Shown: positions 10,070 through 27,007 of the stretch, piece after piece
Layout of the letters: every line of letters starts with the position of its first letter
Numbering within the stretch: the first letter of the stretch is position 1
Virus record (IMG/VR): IMGVR_UViG_2541047679_000003
Strand: one strand, 5' to 3'
DNA from: a virus
Lineage: Duplodnaviria > Heunggongvirae > Uroviricota > Caudoviricetes
Length of the DNA: 35,960 nt
Made by a program: the position numbers and the translations under genes
Notes under the pieces: model-generated
The model's input: only the letters and a program-made list of their open reading frames with translations
Database searches by the model: none
Told to the model about the DNA's origin: nothing

Positions 10070-11496
10070 CAGTTGCCCCCTTTCAGGGTTAACAGGTATT
10101 CCGAGGTGATCTCAGTCTCAAACGTCAGTCGCTCCAGCGGCGGTGGTGGCGTATATTTGTAGCTCAGCAACAGGTGCCCGGCGGCCAGCTCCGTCTCCGG
10201 ATTGCGGGCCGGATCAAACCAGCAACGGAAGCCCAGTACCGCACCATCACCAGTCATTTTGCGACCGTAGGCGTTGACCGACTCCGTCAGTGCATCAATC
10301 AGCGCCTGAGTAATCGGCATGTCGATGTACTGCTGGCTGAAATAACGAATGGACTCGTTGATCACATCACCGGTGCGGCGAACGTTCTCAAAGTTACGCA
10401 TATGGGTGACCGTTGGCCATGCTGCCGTCCGGTTACCCCACAGACGAAGGCCGCTGCCGTAACTGCTGAATACCGTGGTGATCCCCTGTTCGTTAAGCAG
10501 GTTCACCTCACTCTGCGGGTCATCAATCATCGCGGACAGCTGGCGCTCCACGCCGGTGATCCCCAGAATCTCCTGATTGGAGGATGACCACCAGTAGCCC
10601 TTGTCCAGATCGACTCTGGCACGCAGACCTGCTGCACGCTGGCTGAGCGGCTCCAGACGCTCTGTGTTTGTCACCGGGTCATATACCTTCACATGCGGAT
10701 AGCACAGACGGACGCGGTCGGAGCTGGTATTGAAGTTGATGGTGCCTTCCGGGCCACGACCTGCCAGAGCCTGTGCAAAGGTGGTACCGACAGGCGCATC
10801 AATGTAGGTTACCGCGCCCAGCTTCTCTGCCATGGCGATAAGCTCAACTGCGACACTCTTCTGGGTGCAGAACACCGGCGCAATCAGAATTTTGGCGAAA
10901 TAGCCGTACAGGTTGAAGCTGTCGTTAAGCAGCTTCATGCCGGTTCGGTTTCCGGCGCTGTTCACCCCGCCGATGATGTCCGCCGCAGTCACCTTCGACG
11001 GGTCCGCGTACTCATAGCTCACCTTCACGCTGCCACCGGCCTCAATAGCCTTGCCCAGGTTCGTGAGCACACCCGCCTGCGCATCAACACGGTAGTCCGT
11101 GTTCGCCGTGTGGGTGGTGCTGCCTTCACTGTTTTTCACCACCACATTAGCGACAACCGGATGCGCCAGTCTGGCCTGCCCTGTCGATTTGTCAAAGGTA
11201 ACCACCTCATCCTCGATCGCCGTTTTATGTTTCGCCGGGTCGAGGACGTTAATGACCAGAACGGTGCCTGCACCATGGTCATAAATCGCATCCAGCGCCT
11301 GCGGAATGGTAAAGCCGGTGAACTGGCTGCCAAATGCCGCTGCGTCTTTCTCAGACAGGCACTGTACCAGCGTATTGACATCCCCCATCGGGGCGGTACC
11401 AATCAGGCCAATAACGGCAGATTTCACCGTTTTAACCGGGCGGGCACCGTTTTCCACCTCAATGGTTTCGGGACCATGCAGATAGTTAGCTGCCAT
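10069..11496 (-). CDS. contractile tail sheath protein
   Basis: 475-aa ORF, ATG at 11496 with GGAGGA SD, sheath-tube gene order. Confidence 0.85.
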   Translation of the reverse strand: MAANYLHGPETIEVENGARPVKTVKSAVIGLIGTAPMGDVNTLVQCLSEKDAAAFGSQFTGFTIPQALDAIYDHGAGTVLVINVLDPAKHKTAIEDEVVTFDKSTGQARLAHPVVANVVVKNSEGSTTHTANTDYRVDAQAGVLTNLGKAIEAGGSVKVSYEYADPSKVTAADIIGGVNSAGNRTGMKLLNDSFNLYGYFAKILIAPVFCTQKSVAVELIAMAEKLGAVTYIDAPVGTTFAQALAGRGPEGTINFNTSSDRVRLCYPHVKVYDPVTNTERLEPLSQRAAGLRARVDLDKGYWWSSSNQEILGITGVERQLSAMIDDPQSEVNLLNEQGITTVFSSYGSGLRLWGNRTAAWPTVTHMRNFENVRRTGDVINESIRYFSQQYIDMPITQALIDALTESVNAYGRKMTGDGAVLGFRCWFDPARNPETELAAGHLLLSYKYTPPPPLERLTFETEITSEYLLTLKGGN

Positions 11497-24195: not shown

Positions 24196-24960
24196 ATGAA
24201 AATGCAGACATTACCCATCGTGCCGTGGATTGGTGGCAAACGCCGCCTTGCAAAACACATTCTGCCGCTGTTTCCGGCGCATGAATGTTATGTGGAGCCG
24301 TTTTGTGGGGCAGCAGCGCTCTATTTTCTTAAGACACCCGGCAAGATCGAAGTCATCAATGATATCAACGGTGAACTGGTGAATCTGTACCGGGTGGTAA
24401 AGCATCACCTGGAAGAATTTGTCCGCCAGTTCAAATGGGCGCTGGTCAGCCGTCAGATCTACAAATGGCTGCAGATCACCCCGGAAGAAACACTGACGGA
24501 TATCCAGCGTGCGGCACGGTTCTACTACCTTCAGAAGCAGGCGTTTGGCGGCAAGGTGGCAGAGCACAGCTTCGGTACCTCCACCACATCCCCGCCACGC
24601 TTCAACCTGCTACGTATTGAAGAAGAACTGTCAGCGGCACACCTGCGGCTTTCCAGAACAGTCATAGAACACATGGACTGGCAACAGTGCATTGAGCGTT
24701 ATGATCGTCCGCACACGCTGTTCTACTGCGACCCACCGTACCTGGGTACGGAAGGCTATGGTGTGGATTTTCCTGAAGGGAACTACTCGCGGCTGGCAGA
24801 GCTGGCCCGGTGCATCAGAGGAAAAATGATAATTTCGGTGAACGACATCCCGCAGATGCGCGAGGTGTTCACTGGACTGAACATACAGACAGTGAATATC
24901 AACTACAGTCTGGCGGGTAAACCCACGCCGCGCCGTGAACTGCTAATCTGCAACTTCTGA
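24196..24960 (+). CDS. dam: DNA adenine methyltransferase (Dam family)
   Basis: N-terminal ...PWIGGKRRL... AdoMet-binding region and catalytic DPPY motif (FYCDPPYLGTEGYG); ATG at 24196. Confidence 0.85.
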   Translation: MKMQTLPIVPWIGGKRRLAKHILPLFPAHECYVEPFCGAAALYFLKTPGKIEVINDINGELVNLYRVVKHHLEEFVRQFKWALVSRQIYKWLQITPEETLTDIQRAARFYYLQKQAFGGKVAEHSFGTSTTSPPRFNLLRIEEELSAAHLRLSRTVIEHMDWQQCIERYDRPHTLFYCDPPYLGTEGYGVDFPEGNYSRLAELARCIRGKMIISVNDIPQMREVFTGLNIQTVNINYSLAGKPTPRRELLICNF

Positions 24961-24966
24961 AACAAA

Positions 24967-24991
24967 ACCGGAAAGCACAATGCTTTCCGGT
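24967..24991 (-). terminator. rho-independent terminator downstream of the repressor gene
   Basis: accggaaagca / tgctttccggt stem followed on the minus strand by TTTTGTTTC; lies between the convergent dam and repressor genes. Confidence 0.5.
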
Positions 24992-25076
24992 AAACCAAAC
25001 AACTTCCACTATGTCACTGGCGATGTTTTCTGAAAGCATCCAGATCAACCACCTGTCCTTTGTGTCCGGGTCAGTA

Positions 25077-25433
25077 TCAGCCTGCGATTTTTCCTGGTTT
25101 TGGCTGAGTATAGAATCGCCCAATCTCAAGAAATGAGCGTTGTTGGTCTGGTGTCATGTCGTCAAAAGTATCTATTAGTTTTTGTTTTTCTGGGGAAATT
25201 TGATTCTGGTTTCTAGTCATACCATCTGTGCTCATTCCAGTGAGCAACCAATTTACATCAACATTAAACTCTTGATGCATCTTTAACAGAAACTCCCCTC
25301 CAGGCATCGCCTTTCCATTTTCAATCTGACTGATACCACCATTAGAAATACCTAAACGAGCTGCAAATTCTCTCTGGTTCAACCCTGCTTTCTTCCTCAC
25401 AGAAATAACGCGCTCTCCTATATCTTTGCTCAT
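25077..25433 (-). CDS. prophage repressor, HTH XRE family
   Basis: N-terminal helix-turn-helix (...LNQREFAARLGISNGGISQIENGK...), divergent from the early operon. Confidence 0.8.
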   Translation of the reverse strand: MSKDIGERVISVRKKAGLNQREFAARLGISNGGISQIENGKAMPGGEFLLKMHQEFNVDVNWLLTGMSTDGMTRNQNQISPEKQKLIDTFDDMTPDQQRSFLEIGRFYTQPKPGKIAG

Positions 25434-25450
25434 AAAAGTGAATCTCTATC

Positions 25451-25479
25451 TTGATATGCTCATAATTATGAGCAATAAT
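25451..25479 (+). promoter_or_regulatory. candidate early promoter (Pe-like)
   Basis: TTGATA, 17-bp spacer, AATAAT about 45 nt upstream of the ner-like ATG. Confidence 0.4.
25457..25474. promoter_or_regulatory. operator: perfect 18-bp palindrome TGCTCATAATTATGAGCA
   Basis: Read directly; lies in the repressor/early-operon divergent region and fills the spacer of a candidate early promoter. Confidence 0.55.
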
Positions 25480-25526
25480 CTAACACATATAAGGCAAACA
25501 TCATTGCATCAACAAAGGAGACAACG

Positions 25527-25715
25527 ATGACTGCAGAACAAGTCAAAGCTCTCTTCCGCCAGCGCGGGATCACTTTCACCCGCTGGGCAGAAGAAAACGG
25601 CTACAACCGCAATGAGGTATACCGCGTTCTCAACGGGCAGACCAAAGCCCGTTACGGTAAATCCCATGAAATCGCCGTGAAGTTGGGACTGAAATCAACA
25701 GCTCAGGCGGCCTAA
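25527..25715 (+). CDS. Ner-like small DNA-binding regulator
   Basis: 62-aa ORF with AAAGGAG SD, first gene of the early operon; residue pattern resembles Ner/Nlp-type proteins. Confidence 0.6.
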   Translation: MTAEQVKALFRQRGITFTRWAEENGYNRNEVYRVLNGQTKARYGKSHEIAVKLGLKSTAQAA

Positions 25716-25761
25716 ATATTTTGAGTCTTTGTAAAAGGTTATCACATATCGCAAAAGAGGT

Positions 25762-26076
25762 ATGCAGATGAGTAAGACGAATGTTTCAAGCTCCGGCAGT
25801 CGCATCCTCCGGGTACTCAAAGCGCTGCGCGGTCATGCCCTGAACGGTATTTCTAACGGTGAACTGGCGACAGCACTGCACGAGTCACCGGCAAACATCA
25901 ACCGGGCACTCAACACCCTCATTGAAGAAGGGCTGGCTCTGAAACTGGAGAACGGACGTTTTGCACCGGGCATCCAGTTACTGCAGATCGCCATGGCCCA
26001 CAGTAACGAGATGGCACGTGCACAGGATCGTATTAACGAAATTAACCAACGTGTCATTTCAGGTAGTCGTTTGTAA
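25762..26076 (+). CDS. winged-helix DNA-binding protein
   Basis: ...LRVLKALRGHALNGISNGELATALHESPANINRALNTLIEEGLA... HTH-like; the start may be the second ATG at 25768. Confidence 0.5.
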   Translation: MQMSKTNVSSSGSRILRVLKALRGHALNGISNGELATALHESPANINRALNTLIEEGLALKLENGRFAPGIQLLQIAMAHSNEMARAQDRINEINQRVISGSRL

Positions 26077-26086
26077 GGAGTAATCA

Positions 26087-27007
26087 ATGGGACGTACCAA
26101 ATCACCGATTAACACTGAACTGAACGCCGATGTACCGCTGTCGGATGATCTCAACGTCAGCCTGAATGCCATGACACAGCATCGCATGGAGATCATGCAG
26201 CAGTTTGGTGATGGACTGCCTTATGAACGTGAACGCATCGTTCACGAAGCACGTTTTTATATGGCGCAGAGTGCTGAATCTATGTTGGAAGCGGGTAAGC
26301 GGCTGATCATCTTAAAAGAAAATGAACCGCATGGTGATTTCACAAATATTCTGGAAAACGACCTCGGATTAGCACCACAGGTAGCTCGTCGCATGATGCA
26401 GGCCAGCGTGAAATTTCTCGGCAATGGAGATGAACAGCCAAAACGCTCAGCGCTGAGCGTTTTGGGAAAAACCAAGTTATATGAACTGATGGTTCTGGAT
26501 GACGAAGAACTCGACGCATTAGCTGATGGTGGAACCGTCGCCGGTGCAACGCTTGATGATATTGATCGCATGACCAGCCGCGAACTGAAGGCCGCCCTGC
26601 GTGAAGCGCGCGAAACCAACGCAGCTCAGCAACAGGTGCTTGCCGGAAAGGACGAAAAAATCAACGAACTGGCCACAAAACTGGAGAAGAAATCGCGCCT
26701 GCAACCTCCGCCGCCAGACGAAGAACTGAAAAAATTGCGGGCGGAAGTGACGGCATTAGCGGTTGAGGCCGAATCGGCTATCGCCGTCCGGCTGTCCAGT
26801 GTTTTTGAGACCCTGTGTGAATACTGCACCAAAAACATGATCGATACCCCCAGAGATTTCATGGCCGGTCTGGTCTGCCAGATTGAACGCAGTGTTCATG
26901 CATTACGTGAGACGTTTGACCTTGAGGCCGCTCCATCGGGTAACGATGCCCCCGCCTGGCTGACCGAACCGGAACCTGAAATCAACCGACCGGAGGATAT
27001 GCAGTAA
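26087..27007 (+). CDS. hypothetical early protein (possibly DUF3102-like)
   Basis: 306-aa ORF with AGGAG SD, acidic coiled-coil middle region; family assignment from memory only. Confidence 0.55.
   Translation: MGRTKSPINTELNADVPLSDDLNVSLNAMTQHRMEIMQQFGDGLPYERERIVHEARFYMAQSAESMLEAGKRLIILKENEPHGDFTNILENDLGLAPQVARRMMQASVKFLGNGDEQPKRSALSVLGKTKLYELMVLDDEELDALADGGTVAGATLDDIDRMTSRELKAALREARETNAAQQQVLAGKDEKINELATKLEKKSRLQPPPPDEELKKLRAEVTALAVEAESAIAVRLSSVFETLCEYCTKNMIDTPRDFMAGLVCQIERSVHALRETFDLEAAPSGNDAPAWLTEPEPEINRPEDMQ

What the first reader, a model, noticed from the sequence alone, without database searches (positions are those of the whole stretch)
25434..25526. Compact immunity switch: perfect 18-bp palindromic operator inside the early promoter spacer
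The 94-bp region between the divergent repressor and the ner-like gene contains the perfect palindrome TGCTCATAATTATGAGCA (25457-25474), exactly filling the 17-bp spacer between a TTGATA -35 and an AATAAT -10 oriented toward the early operon. A dimeric HTH repressor bound there would occlude the early promoter. This is much more compact than the Mu c/ner control region with its multiple operators, and fits an XRE-type repressor instead of a Mu c-type one.
Basis: seen in the sequence. Interest (0 to 1): 0.45.

Follow-up and report, generated by a model that had tools for sequence, protein, structure and literature searches.

The report
Phage repressor operator inside early promoter
The 18-bp palindrome is very probably the main DNA site where this transposable prophage's repressor sits to shut off its lytic promoter; this is an ordinary kind of phage switch, but here it is well supported by comparison with about 70 related prophages.

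Summary
TGCTCATAATTATGAGCA (25457-25474) is a perfect palindrome filling the spacer of the only sigma70-like promoter in the region (TTGATA-17-AATAAT). That promoter faces a ner-like gene and the transposase operon of a BcepMu-like prophage (Escherichia phage PhiKM, 100% identity; about 390 complete E. coli genomes). The reading as the operator of the divergent 118-aa 434/P22-c2-like repressor is supported by comparison, not by experiment. In 48 distinct related promoters, dyad symmetry peaks only at the spacer. The dyad sequence co-varies with the repressor's DNA-binding domain and not with the ner backbone. A heteroimmune E. coli prophage with an identical ner protein carries a different dyad.

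Two amendments. The switch is not single-operator: a weaker O2 (25427-25444) lies 30 bp away over the repressor start codon, and O3 (25229-25246, perfect arms) lies inside the repressor gene. Also, O1, O2, the -35 and the repressor N-terminal domain form a swappable ~270-bp immunity cassette that ends at the -10.

The repressor's own promoter is unresolved, and no binding or start-site data exist. Verdict: real and ordinary in kind, a new member of a known kind; interest about 0.33. Separately, a 24-28-bp perfect palindrome with compensatory variation lies inside the downstream DUF3102 gene and is unexplained.

The parts
25457..25474 (.). O1, the primary operator: perfect 18-bp palindrome TGCTCAT-AATT-ATGAGCA filling the Pe spacer
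   Evidence: It is 18/18 conserved in a lineage whose repressor gene is only 70% identical. The family-wide dyad peak falls at this position.
25451..25456 (+). -35 hexamer TTGATA of the early promoter Pe
   Evidence: Equivalent TTGACx hexamers occur in 62 of 71 related loci.
25474..25479 (+). -10 hexamer AATAAT of Pe; also the right-hand boundary of the immunity cassette
25427..25444 (.). O2, a weaker operator TGCTCATAAAAGTGAATC (12/18 match to O1, left arm 7/7), centre 30 bp from O1, overlapping the repressor start codon (25431-25433)
   Evidence: repeats D7, I4. Family-wide second site at 29-34 bp. 16/18 conserved in the diverged lineage.
25229..25246 (.). O3, a candidate auxiliary operator TGCTCA-TTCCAG-TGAGCA inside the repressor gene (codons LLTGMS), 228 bp from O1
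   Evidence: 3 hits at up to 1 mismatch against 0.15 expected; arms 12/12 conserved and 5/5 synonymous codons identical, against about 0.5 overall; similar distal sites in some other immunity types.
25077..25433 (-). Immunity repressor gene, 118 aa: N-terminal 434/P22-c2-like HTH domain, linker, small helical C-terminal domain
   Evidence: Not annotated in the PhiKM GenBank record.
25205..25475 (.). Exchangeable immunity cassette (approximate bounds): repressor N-terminal domain, O2, -35 and O1
   Evidence: identity to heteroimmune E. coli prophages falls to 30-50% here, and is up to 100% on both sides in the closest variant (L002).
25477..25485 (-). Candidate proximal repressor promoter: extended -10 TGtTAGATT on the minus strand, back-to-back with the Pe -10 (weak, unverified)
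   Evidence: TAATCTAnCA is conserved in the enterobacterial variants. Overlapping pC2/pE promoters are predicted in B3 and Fc02.
25495..25511 (+). Conserved leader motif CAAACATCATTGCATCA, 15 nt after the -10; candidate site for the ner-like protein or a leader element
   Evidence: 33 of 46 non-redundant loci match at 12/17 or better, 26 of them at exactly 15 nt.
25515..25520 (+). Shine-Dalgarno sequence AAGGAG of the ner-like gene
   Evidence: read directly from the sequence.
25527..25715 (+). ner-like gene (BcepMu gp16 family), first gene of the early operon
   Evidence: TIGR04111, 97.4 bits against a cut-off of 34. Pfam Ner family HTH_35 below threshold.
24967..24991 (-). Terminator-like hairpin downstream of the repressor gene

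Best explanation
The palindrome at 25457-25474 is O1, the primary operator of the immunity repressor of a BcepMu-like transposable prophage (Escherichia phage PhiKM). The repressor is the 118-aa protein encoded divergently at 25433-25077, and its N-terminal domain is a 434/P22-c2-type helix-turn-helix. O1 fills the 17-bp spacer of the sigma70 early promoter Pe (TTGATA/AATAAT). Pe drives the ner-like gene, an IclR-like HTH gene, a DUF3102 gene and the transposase genes. A repressor dimer, with one HTH per 7-bp arm and arm centres about 11 bp apart, would occupy the spacer and stop RNA polymerase from using Pe, which keeps transposition-replication off (inferred). O2 is a weaker site three helical turns away over the repressor's own start codon, and O3 is a site with perfect arms inside the repressor gene. 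Together they probably give cooperative binding or looping and negative autoregulation (inferred, less certain). O1, O2, the -35 and the repressor N-terminal domain form a ~270-bp immunity cassette that is exchanged between otherwise near-identical prophages. The -10, the leader, ner and the repressor C-terminal domain are common to the different immunity types.
For: Anatomy and chance. Repressor type: HTH_3 at 55.8 bits; 434 repressor E=3e-8 and P22 c2 E=1e-5. Family-wide rule: 62 of 71 related loci have a sigma70-like promoter upstream of ner. In 48 distinct spacers the mean dyad score is 5.7 at the spacer and about 3 at every other offset from -60 to +65; 56% score 6 or more against under 2% of controls, p about 1e-20. 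Covariation: operator half-site identity rises from 0.32 to 0.69 to 0.85 as repressor N-terminal identity rises; Mantel test 0 of 2000 permutations. Pairs with ner at least 80% identical but repressor under 40% identical have background operator identity of 0.38. Examples: VSREMWGKYE with GAGAAC..GTTCTC in E. coli and Pasteurellaceae; SQIRWE with TCCCA..TGGGA against SQIGWE with TGCCA..TGGCA. L002 has an identical ner protein and flanks up to 100% identical, but a different dyad. Same immunity type in a diverged lineage: repressor gene 70% identical, O1 18/18. O2: best match of 65% or more in 55% of 31 loci against 2.2% of shuffles, mostly 29-34 bp away. O3. Experimental anchor in a relative: in the B3-like phage Fc02, strand-specific RNA-seq shows the promoter upstream of ner firing when a ts repressor is inactivated (PMC9936078). 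Its sequence has the same layout, TTGACT-a-TGGGACtttgatGTCCCA-ATATCA; B3 and BcepMu do too. One strain (2014C-3075) carries two such prophages with different cassettes.
Against: There are no binding, footprint or start-site data for this phage or, in the literature I could reach, for any BcepMu- or B3-like operator. The repressor's own promoter is not identified: only weak leftward candidates exist. The best proximal candidate would start inside O1, so O1 occupancy would also shut off repressor synthesis unless a distal promoter exists as in Fc02. Nine of the 48 distinct spacers have dyad scores of 3 or less, so the rule is common but not universal. O3 lies on the conserved WLLTG codons, and only two lineages are available, so coding constraint is not excluded. 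Dimerisation is inferred from the symmetry and from a single-sequence model (pLDDT 72.9).
Confidence: 0.85

Rival explanations
1. The palindrome is the site of the ner-like (Cro-like) protein or of the downstream IclR-like HTH protein, not of the divergent repressor.
For: In lambda, Cro and CI share operators. Both of these proteins are small HTH proteins encoded next to the site.
Against: E. coli prophage L002 encodes a ner protein identical to the window's but has a different spacer dyad. L002, L003 and L004 share the same IclR-like protein (WP_000047758.1) yet have different dyads. Operator identity does not follow ner identity once the repressor differs. The element that does follow ner is the leader motif at 25495-25511.
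Confidence: 0.03
2. The palindrome acts as an RNA hairpin in the repressor transcript, affecting stability, termination or translation, rather than as a protein-binding DNA site.
For: If the repressor is transcribed from a promoter to the right of O1, as in Fc02, the palindrome is transcribed. Dyads with compensatory changes would also fit a hairpin.
Against: The fold is unremarkable: -9.2 kcal/mol, z = -1.4, with 20 of 200 shuffles folding at least as well. No Rfam family matches. No U-run follows it. A hairpin does not explain why the sequence co-varies with the HTH domain. It also does not explain the half-site copies in O2, or the exact registration of the dyad with the -35 and -10.
Confidence: 0.04
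3. It is a chance palindrome in an AT-rich promoter region with no specific function.
For: The region is 32% G+C, and short AT-rich palindromes are common in promoters.
Against: P is about 5e-4 within the region. It is 18/18 conserved where the neighbouring gene is 70% identical. Analogous dyads sit at the same place in most of 48 distinct promoters.
Confidence: 0.02
4. O1 is the only functional operator; O2 and O3 are by-products of coding sequence (Met-Ser at the start, WLLTG inside the gene) and of shared ancestry.
For: O2's perfect arm is the ATG-AGC of the repressor start. O3 lies on a conserved peptide motif. Only two lineages of this immunity type are available. Most other immunity types show no distal site at 2 or fewer mismatches.
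Against: A second site at 29-34 bp is enriched family-wide, in cassettes where it does not overlap the start codon in the same way. The pattern TGCTCA-N6-TGAGCA is about 20-fold over expectation in the window. All five synonymous codons in the O3 block are identical against about 50% overall. Distal sites at 2 or fewer mismatches occur in 21% of types against 1.8% of controls.
Confidence: 0.3

Closest known systems
Phage 434 cI and P22 c2 repressors with their palindromic operators
   Same: The N-terminal HTH domain is homologous (434 E=3e-8, P22 c2 E=1e-5). The operator is a 14-18-bp dyad overlapping the lytic promoter between divergent repressor and cro-like genes. Immunity specificity is exchanged as a repressor-plus-operator module.
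   Different: There is no S24 peptidase or RecA-cleavable C-terminal domain: the protein is 118 aa with a small helical C-terminal domain. The main site fills the promoter spacer, with a weak site 30 bp away and one inside the gene, rather than three tandem OR sites. The host element is a transposable phage, not a lambdoid one.
Pseudomonas phages B3 and Fc02 (Beetrevirus) repc/ner control region
   Same: The ner-like protein is homologous. The divergent repressor sits across a short intergenic region (106 bp in Fc02) with predicted overlapping pC2 and pE. pE fires on repressor inactivation (PMC9936078). The layout is the same: TTGACx, dyad, -10, with an upstream half-site.
   Different: The operators were not defined in the paper I could read. 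The dyad sequences and repressor domains differ (other immunity types). Fc02 maintains repressor mRNA from a distal pC1 promoter antisense to ner; no equivalent could be identified here.
Burkholderia phage BcepMu gp17 (Cro/CI-type repressor) and gp16
   Same: The virus genus is the same according to the PhiKM record. The gp16 family membership is met. The gene arrangement is the same, with TTGACA-g-GTAATCaaacgCATACC-ATACTT and an upstream GATTACC.
   Different: gp16 is only about 46% identical. The BcepMu dyad is imperfect, with 4 of 6 arm positions symmetric.
Phage Mu c repressor, ner and the O1-O3 operators
   Same: The logic is the same: a divergent repressor and a small early regulator control the transposase operon of a transposable phage.
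   Different: From established knowledge, Mu c is a winged-helix protein related to the MuA N-terminus, binding many asymmetric sites in O1-O3 with an IHF site, in a much longer region. Here the repressor is XRE-type, the sites are dyads, there is no IHF consensus, and the region is 93 bp.
Short prophage repressors DicA (Qin) and RstR (CTXphi)
   Same: They are XRE-type repressors of about 110-135 aa without a peptidase domain. There are sub-threshold NCBIfam matches (RstR 40 bits, DicA 39 bits).
   Different: The scores are far below the family cut-offs (80 and 101 bits), so this protein is not a member. Its C-terminal domain is conserved only within this phage group.

Membership tests
Cro/CI (XRE, HTH_3) phage repressor with a dyad operator | HTH_3 / lambda-repressor-like DNA-binding domain | tested here: met
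   PF01381 at 55.8 bits against a cut-off of 23. 434 repressor E=3e-8 and P22 c2 E=1e-5. The model shows a five-helix domain at residues 4-63.
Cro/CI (XRE, HTH_3) phage repressor with a dyad operator | Dyad-symmetric operator of 14-18 bp overlapping the lytic promoter | tested here: met
   Perfect 18-bp palindrome in the Pe spacer. Family-wide dyad peak at this position.
Cro/CI (XRE, HTH_3) phage repressor with a dyad operator | Operator sequence specified by the repressor's recognition domain (heteroimmunity) | tested here: met
   Covariation of the N-terminal domain with operator half-sites, independent of ner. One strain carries two prophages with different cassettes.
Cro/CI (XRE, HTH_3) phage repressor with a dyad operator | Physical binding of a repressor dimer to the site and repression of the promoter | not testable with these tools
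   Needs EMSA or footprinting and reporter assays.
Lambda CI / 434 cI / P22 c2 full-length (LexA-like, SOS-inducible) repressors | C-terminal S24 peptidase autocleavage domain | tested here: not met
   No Peptidase_S24 hit. The protein is 118 aa, with a two-helix C-terminal part.
Mu c-type repressor and operator system | Mu c / MuA-type winged-helix DNA-binding domain | tested here: not met
   The Pfam scan gives only XRE-type HTH families.
Mu c-type repressor and operator system | Multiple asymmetric sites in O1-O3 with an IHF site between Pe and Pc | tested here: not met
   The sites here are dyads. There is no WATCAANNNNTTR match in the control region. The region is 93 bp.
BcepMu-like (Bcepmuvirus) early control module | gp16-family protein as first early gene | tested here: met
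   TIGR04111 at 97.4 bits against a cut-off of 34.
BcepMu-like (Bcepmuvirus) early control module | Divergent Cro/CI-type repressor, followed by DUF3102, a DDE transposase and an AAA+ transposition ATPase | tested here: met
Mu Ner family (Pfam HTH_35) | Match to PF13693 at or above its gathering score | tested here: inconclusive
   17.9 bits against a cut-off of 25, E=0.003, covering residues 2-39 only. No solved relative found by sequence.

The most novel reading that the evidence does not exclude
The switch is a three-site looping device: O1 in the promoter spacer, O2 on the repressor start codon, and O3 written into the repressor's own coding sequence 228 bp away. It is carried on a ~270-bp immunity cassette whose right edge is the shared -10 hexamer, so that one -10 region serves both divergent promoters in all immunity types of a phage family spread across Proteobacteria.
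Probability: 0.3. Interest if true: 0.5.

Novelty: new member of a known kind. Interest (0 to 1): 0.33.

Why it matters
This prophage is present almost unchanged in about 7% of complete E. coli genomes, including ST131 isolates, and its repressor gene is missing from the phage's GenBank annotation. Defining the operator, the repressor and the cassette boundaries gives a sequence-based way to assign immunity types to BcepMu- and B3-like transposable prophages. It also gives a set of about 20 natural, apparently orthogonal pairs of a small repressor and a 16-18-bp operator that all fit the same promoter scaffold. That set could be used as genetic parts and for studying HTH-DNA recognition (for example IRWE with CCCA against IGWE with GCCA). 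Mechanistically it adds no new principle.

Tried and rejected
Searching arms only gave O3 plus a one-mismatch hit at 11052-11069 that I take as chance.

Known RNA element: no Rfam hit. Hairpin: not significant. IHF site: none in the region.

A strong leftward promoter for the repressor, proximal or distal: none found. The best candidates score 8-9 on a relaxed scale, so Pc is left unresolved.

Literature: nothing found on PhiKM. The B3 genome paper could not be read, and no BcepMu or D3112 operator paper turned up in the library searches. I therefore cannot exclude that those papers already noted the dyads.

Exact-palindrome scans of the viral and metagenome collections: most hits were unrelated chance matches. 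Those with the ner context were the E. coli type or one diverged lineage.

A systematic test that co-resident prophages are always heteroimmune could not be done, because only one place per genome is listed. One verified example is reported.

I did not run the large protein-database searches, because the repressor's fold class was already settled by Pfam and PDB sequence matches.

Full report
WHAT IS THERE. The window is 100% identical to Escherichia phage PhiKM (PQ738613), filed under Bcepmuvirus. The same locus is at least 99% identical in about 390 of 5,426 complete E. coli genomes.

At 25077-25433 on the minus strand lies a 118-aa ORF with an XRE-type HTH domain (HTH_3, 55.8 bits). Its N-terminal 65 residues match the DNA-binding domains of the 434 repressor (E=3e-8) and P22 c2 (E=1e-5). 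The PhiKM record does not annotate this gene.

Divergent from it, at 25527-25715, is a 62-aa protein of the BcepMu_gp16 family (97.4 bits against a cut-off of 34). Its match to Pfam's Ner family is below threshold (17.9 bits against 25). After it come an IclR-like HTH gene, a DUF3102 gene, a 589-aa DDE transposase and an AAA+ ATPase.

THE OBSERVATION. The 93-bp gap (25434-25526) contains the perfect palindrome TGCTCATAATTATGAGCA at 25457-25474. The only sigma70-like site on either strand of 24900-26200 is TTGATA (25451-25456), a 17-bp spacer, then AATAAT (25474-25479), scoring 10/12 and facing the ner-like gene. The palindrome fills the spacer and shares its last base with the -10. Only two perfect palindromes of 18 bp or more exist in the window (0.16 expected), and shuffles of the 93-bp region reach this length in 0.05% of trials.

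COMPARATIVE TEST OF THE OPERATOR READING. I collected 7 diverged E. coli variants and 64 loci from other genera, using the ner-like protein as anchor. 62 of the 71 loci have a good sigma70-like promoter upstream of ner, and in most a dyad lies between the hexamers. In 48 distinct spacers the mean dyad score is 5.7 at the spacer and about 3 at every other offset from -60 to +65. 56% score 6 or more, against under 2% of shuffled or random windows (p about 1e-20).

Nearly every locus has a divergent HTH ORF starting 2-48 bp from the -35.

The dyad sequence follows the repressor's N-terminal domain. Half-site identity is 0.32 when the domains are under 30% identical, 0.69 at 60-80% and 0.85 above 80% (Mantel test, 0 of 2000 permutations). 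Pairs with ner at least 80% identical but repressor under 40% identical sit at background, 0.38.

Concrete cases:
- VSREMWGKYE goes with GAGAAC..GTTCTC in both E. coli and Pasteurellaceae.
- SQIRWE goes with TCCCA..TGGGA in E. coli, Photorhabdus and Pseudomonas, while SQIGWE goes with TGCCA..TGGCA.
- KRTxIDWE goes with GGTGCAG..CTGCACC in E. coli and Pigmentiphaga.

E. coli prophage L002 has a ner protein identical to the window's and flanks up to 100% identical, but a different repressor domain and a different dyad. That excludes the ner-like protein as the binder. The same argument excludes the IclR-like protein, which is shared by L002, L003 and L004.

A diverged lineage of the same immunity type (L010, L081, L097) has a repressor gene 70% identical, yet O1 is 18/18 identical.

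AN EXPERIMENTAL ANCHOR IN A RELATIVE. In the B3-like phage Fc02, whose ner gene is homologous, strand-specific RNA-seq with a ts repressor showed the promoter upstream of ner firing on de-repression. The paper predicts overlapping pC2 and pE in a 106-bp region. [quoted passage not shown] No operator is defined there.

The Fc02 sequence has the same layout, TTGACT-a-TGGGACtttgatGTCCCA-ATATCA with AGTCCC upstream. B3 and BcepMu do as well.

MORE THAN ONE SITE. O2 is TGCTCATAAAAGTGAATC (25427-25444). It matches O1 at 12/18 with the left arm perfect, lies 30 bp centre-to-centre from O1, and covers the repressor start codon. Such a second site is general: the best upstream match is 65% or more in 55% of 31 loci against 2.2% of shuffles, mostly 29-34 bp away.

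O3 is TGCTCATTCCAGTGAGCA (25229-25246). It has both 6-bp arms perfect at the same spacing and lies inside the repressor gene, 228 bp from O1. The arm pattern has 3 hits at up to one mismatch against 0.15 expected. In the diverged lineage the arms are 12/12 conserved, and all five synonymous codons of the block are identical against about 50% overall. Distal sites with two or fewer arm mismatches occur in 21% of immunity types against 1.8% of controls.

I rate O2 as probable and O3 as plausible. Coding constraint on WLLTG is the alternative explanation for O3.

THE IMMUNITY CASSETTE. Against heteroimmune E. coli prophages, identity falls to 30-50% between about 25205 and 25475 and is up to 100% on both sides in the closest variant (L002). 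The right boundary falls at the -10. The repressor N-terminal domain is 26-36% identical between types, while its last 40 residues are 50-80% identical.

A single-sequence model (pLDDT 72.9) gives a five-helix HTH domain, a disordered linker, a two-helix C-terminal hairpin and a floppy tail. This is compatible with a common dimerisation module, but no more than that. No peptidase domain is present, so RecA-type autocleavage is unlikely.

One strain (2014C-3075) carries two such prophages with different cassettes.

HOW IT MOST LIKELY WORKS.
- Shown by sequence and comparison: a repressor-specific dyad sits in the Pe spacer.
- Inferred: a repressor dimer on O1 blocks RNA polymerase at Pe and so silences ner and the transposase operon. 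O2, and perhaps O3, add cooperativity and autoregulation.
- Unresolved: the repressor's own promoter. The best proximal candidate is an extended -10, TGtTAGATT, on the minus strand (25485-25477), back-to-back with the Pe -10 in a TAATCTA motif conserved in the enterobacterial types. It would start transcription inside O1. A distal promoter as in Fc02 could not be identified.

ALTERNATIVES REJECTED. No Rfam family matches. The hairpin is unremarkable (z = -1.4). There is no IHF consensus in the region. The bare half-site is not enriched elsewhere in the prophage.

COMPARISON WITH KNOWN SYSTEMS AND NOVELTY. It works like a 434/P22-type repressor-operator pair placed in a Mu-style divergent c/ner layout. 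It is not a Mu c-type system: the domain and site architecture were tested and not met. It is not a LexA-like cleavable repressor either, since it has no S24 domain.

The kind is well known. What is new is this member, the family-wide spacer rule and the cassette boundaries. I could not read the B3, D3112 or BcepMu papers, so prior mention of these dyads cannot be excluded.

Interest is 0.33; novelty is 'new member of a known kind'.

SEEN IN PASSING. A 28-bp perfect palindrome lies at 26438-26465 inside the DUF3102 gene. Perfect palindromes of at least 16 bp (mostly 24-28 bp) occur at the same position in 29 of 69 loci, against about 1% of shuffles. The arms differ between lineages, stay perfectly symmetric, and alter the encoded peptide. 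No DUF3102 function is described in the library.

The leader motif CAAACATC(A/T)TTGCATCA sits exactly 15 nt after the -10 in 26 of the 33 loci that carry it. It follows ner rather than the immunity type.

Noticed in passing
window 26438-26465 (inside the DUF3102 gene, 26087-27007); homologous positions in L002-L008, L010, L011, L013, L018, L020, L024-L037, L065, L068: A 28-bp perfect palindrome, CCAAAACGCTCAGCGCTGAGCGTTTTGG, lies within a coding sequence. At the same position (about 915-945 bp after the ner start in most loci) 29 of 69 related loci carry a perfect palindrome of at least 16 bp, mostly 24-28 bp, against about 1% of shuffles. The arms differ between lineages but stay perfectly symmetric through a central CG, and the encoded peptide changes to fit (PKRSALSVLG / PNVPTLAHLG / PKATTLSLLG). 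Symmetry through the very centre suggests a DNA site for a symmetric protein rather than an RNA hairpin. Its function is unknown, and no DUF3102 literature was found. It may be more novel than the assigned finding.
   Followed up: partly
window 25495-25511: A conserved leader motif, CAAACATCATTGCATCA, starts exactly 15 nt after the Pe -10 in 26 of the 33 loci that carry it, from Enterobacterales to Pseudomonas and Gallionellaceae. It is shared by heteroimmune prophages and so tracks the ner side. It is a candidate binding site for the ner-like protein, or an early-leader element.
   Followed up: partly
window 25077-25433 and 25011-25136; L001: The GenBank record of phage PhiKM does not annotate the 118-aa repressor gene. 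It annotates a 41-aa ORF on the opposite strand instead. RefSeq E. coli genomes do annotate the repressor.
   Followed up: yes
window 25077-25200 (repressor C-terminal ~40 aa): The C-terminal part of the repressor (…SPEKQKLIDTFDDMTPDQQRSFLEIGRFYTQPKPGKIAG) stays 50-80% identical between heteroimmune types, while the HTH domain drops to 26-36%. It is predicted as a two-helix hairpin plus a disordered tail, and no S24 peptidase domain is present. This suggests a shared dimerisation, anti-repressor or protease-targeting function and a non-SOS route of induction.
   Followed up: partly
L006 and L007 (1041-1502) versus L114 (292-717): RefSeq annotates the repressor of the GAGAAC-type prophages as 153 aa in two genomes, with a start that runs across the -35 and the operator. 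In a third genome it is annotated as 141 aa, starting at a GTG. The longer call is probably an over-extension.
   Followed up: partly
window 24967-24991: An 11-bp perfect stem with a T-run lies between the convergent DNA adenine methylase gene (ends 24960) and the repressor gene (ends 25077). It is probably the terminator of the repressor transcript.
   Followed up: no
E. coli 2014C-3075 (NZ_CP027447.1): L004 at 1.02 Mb and L114 at 2.27 Mb: One genome carries two BcepMu-like prophages with different immunity cassettes (TCCCA..TGGGA and GAGAAC..GTTCAC). Up to three ner loci per genome occur in the collection.
   Followed up: partly
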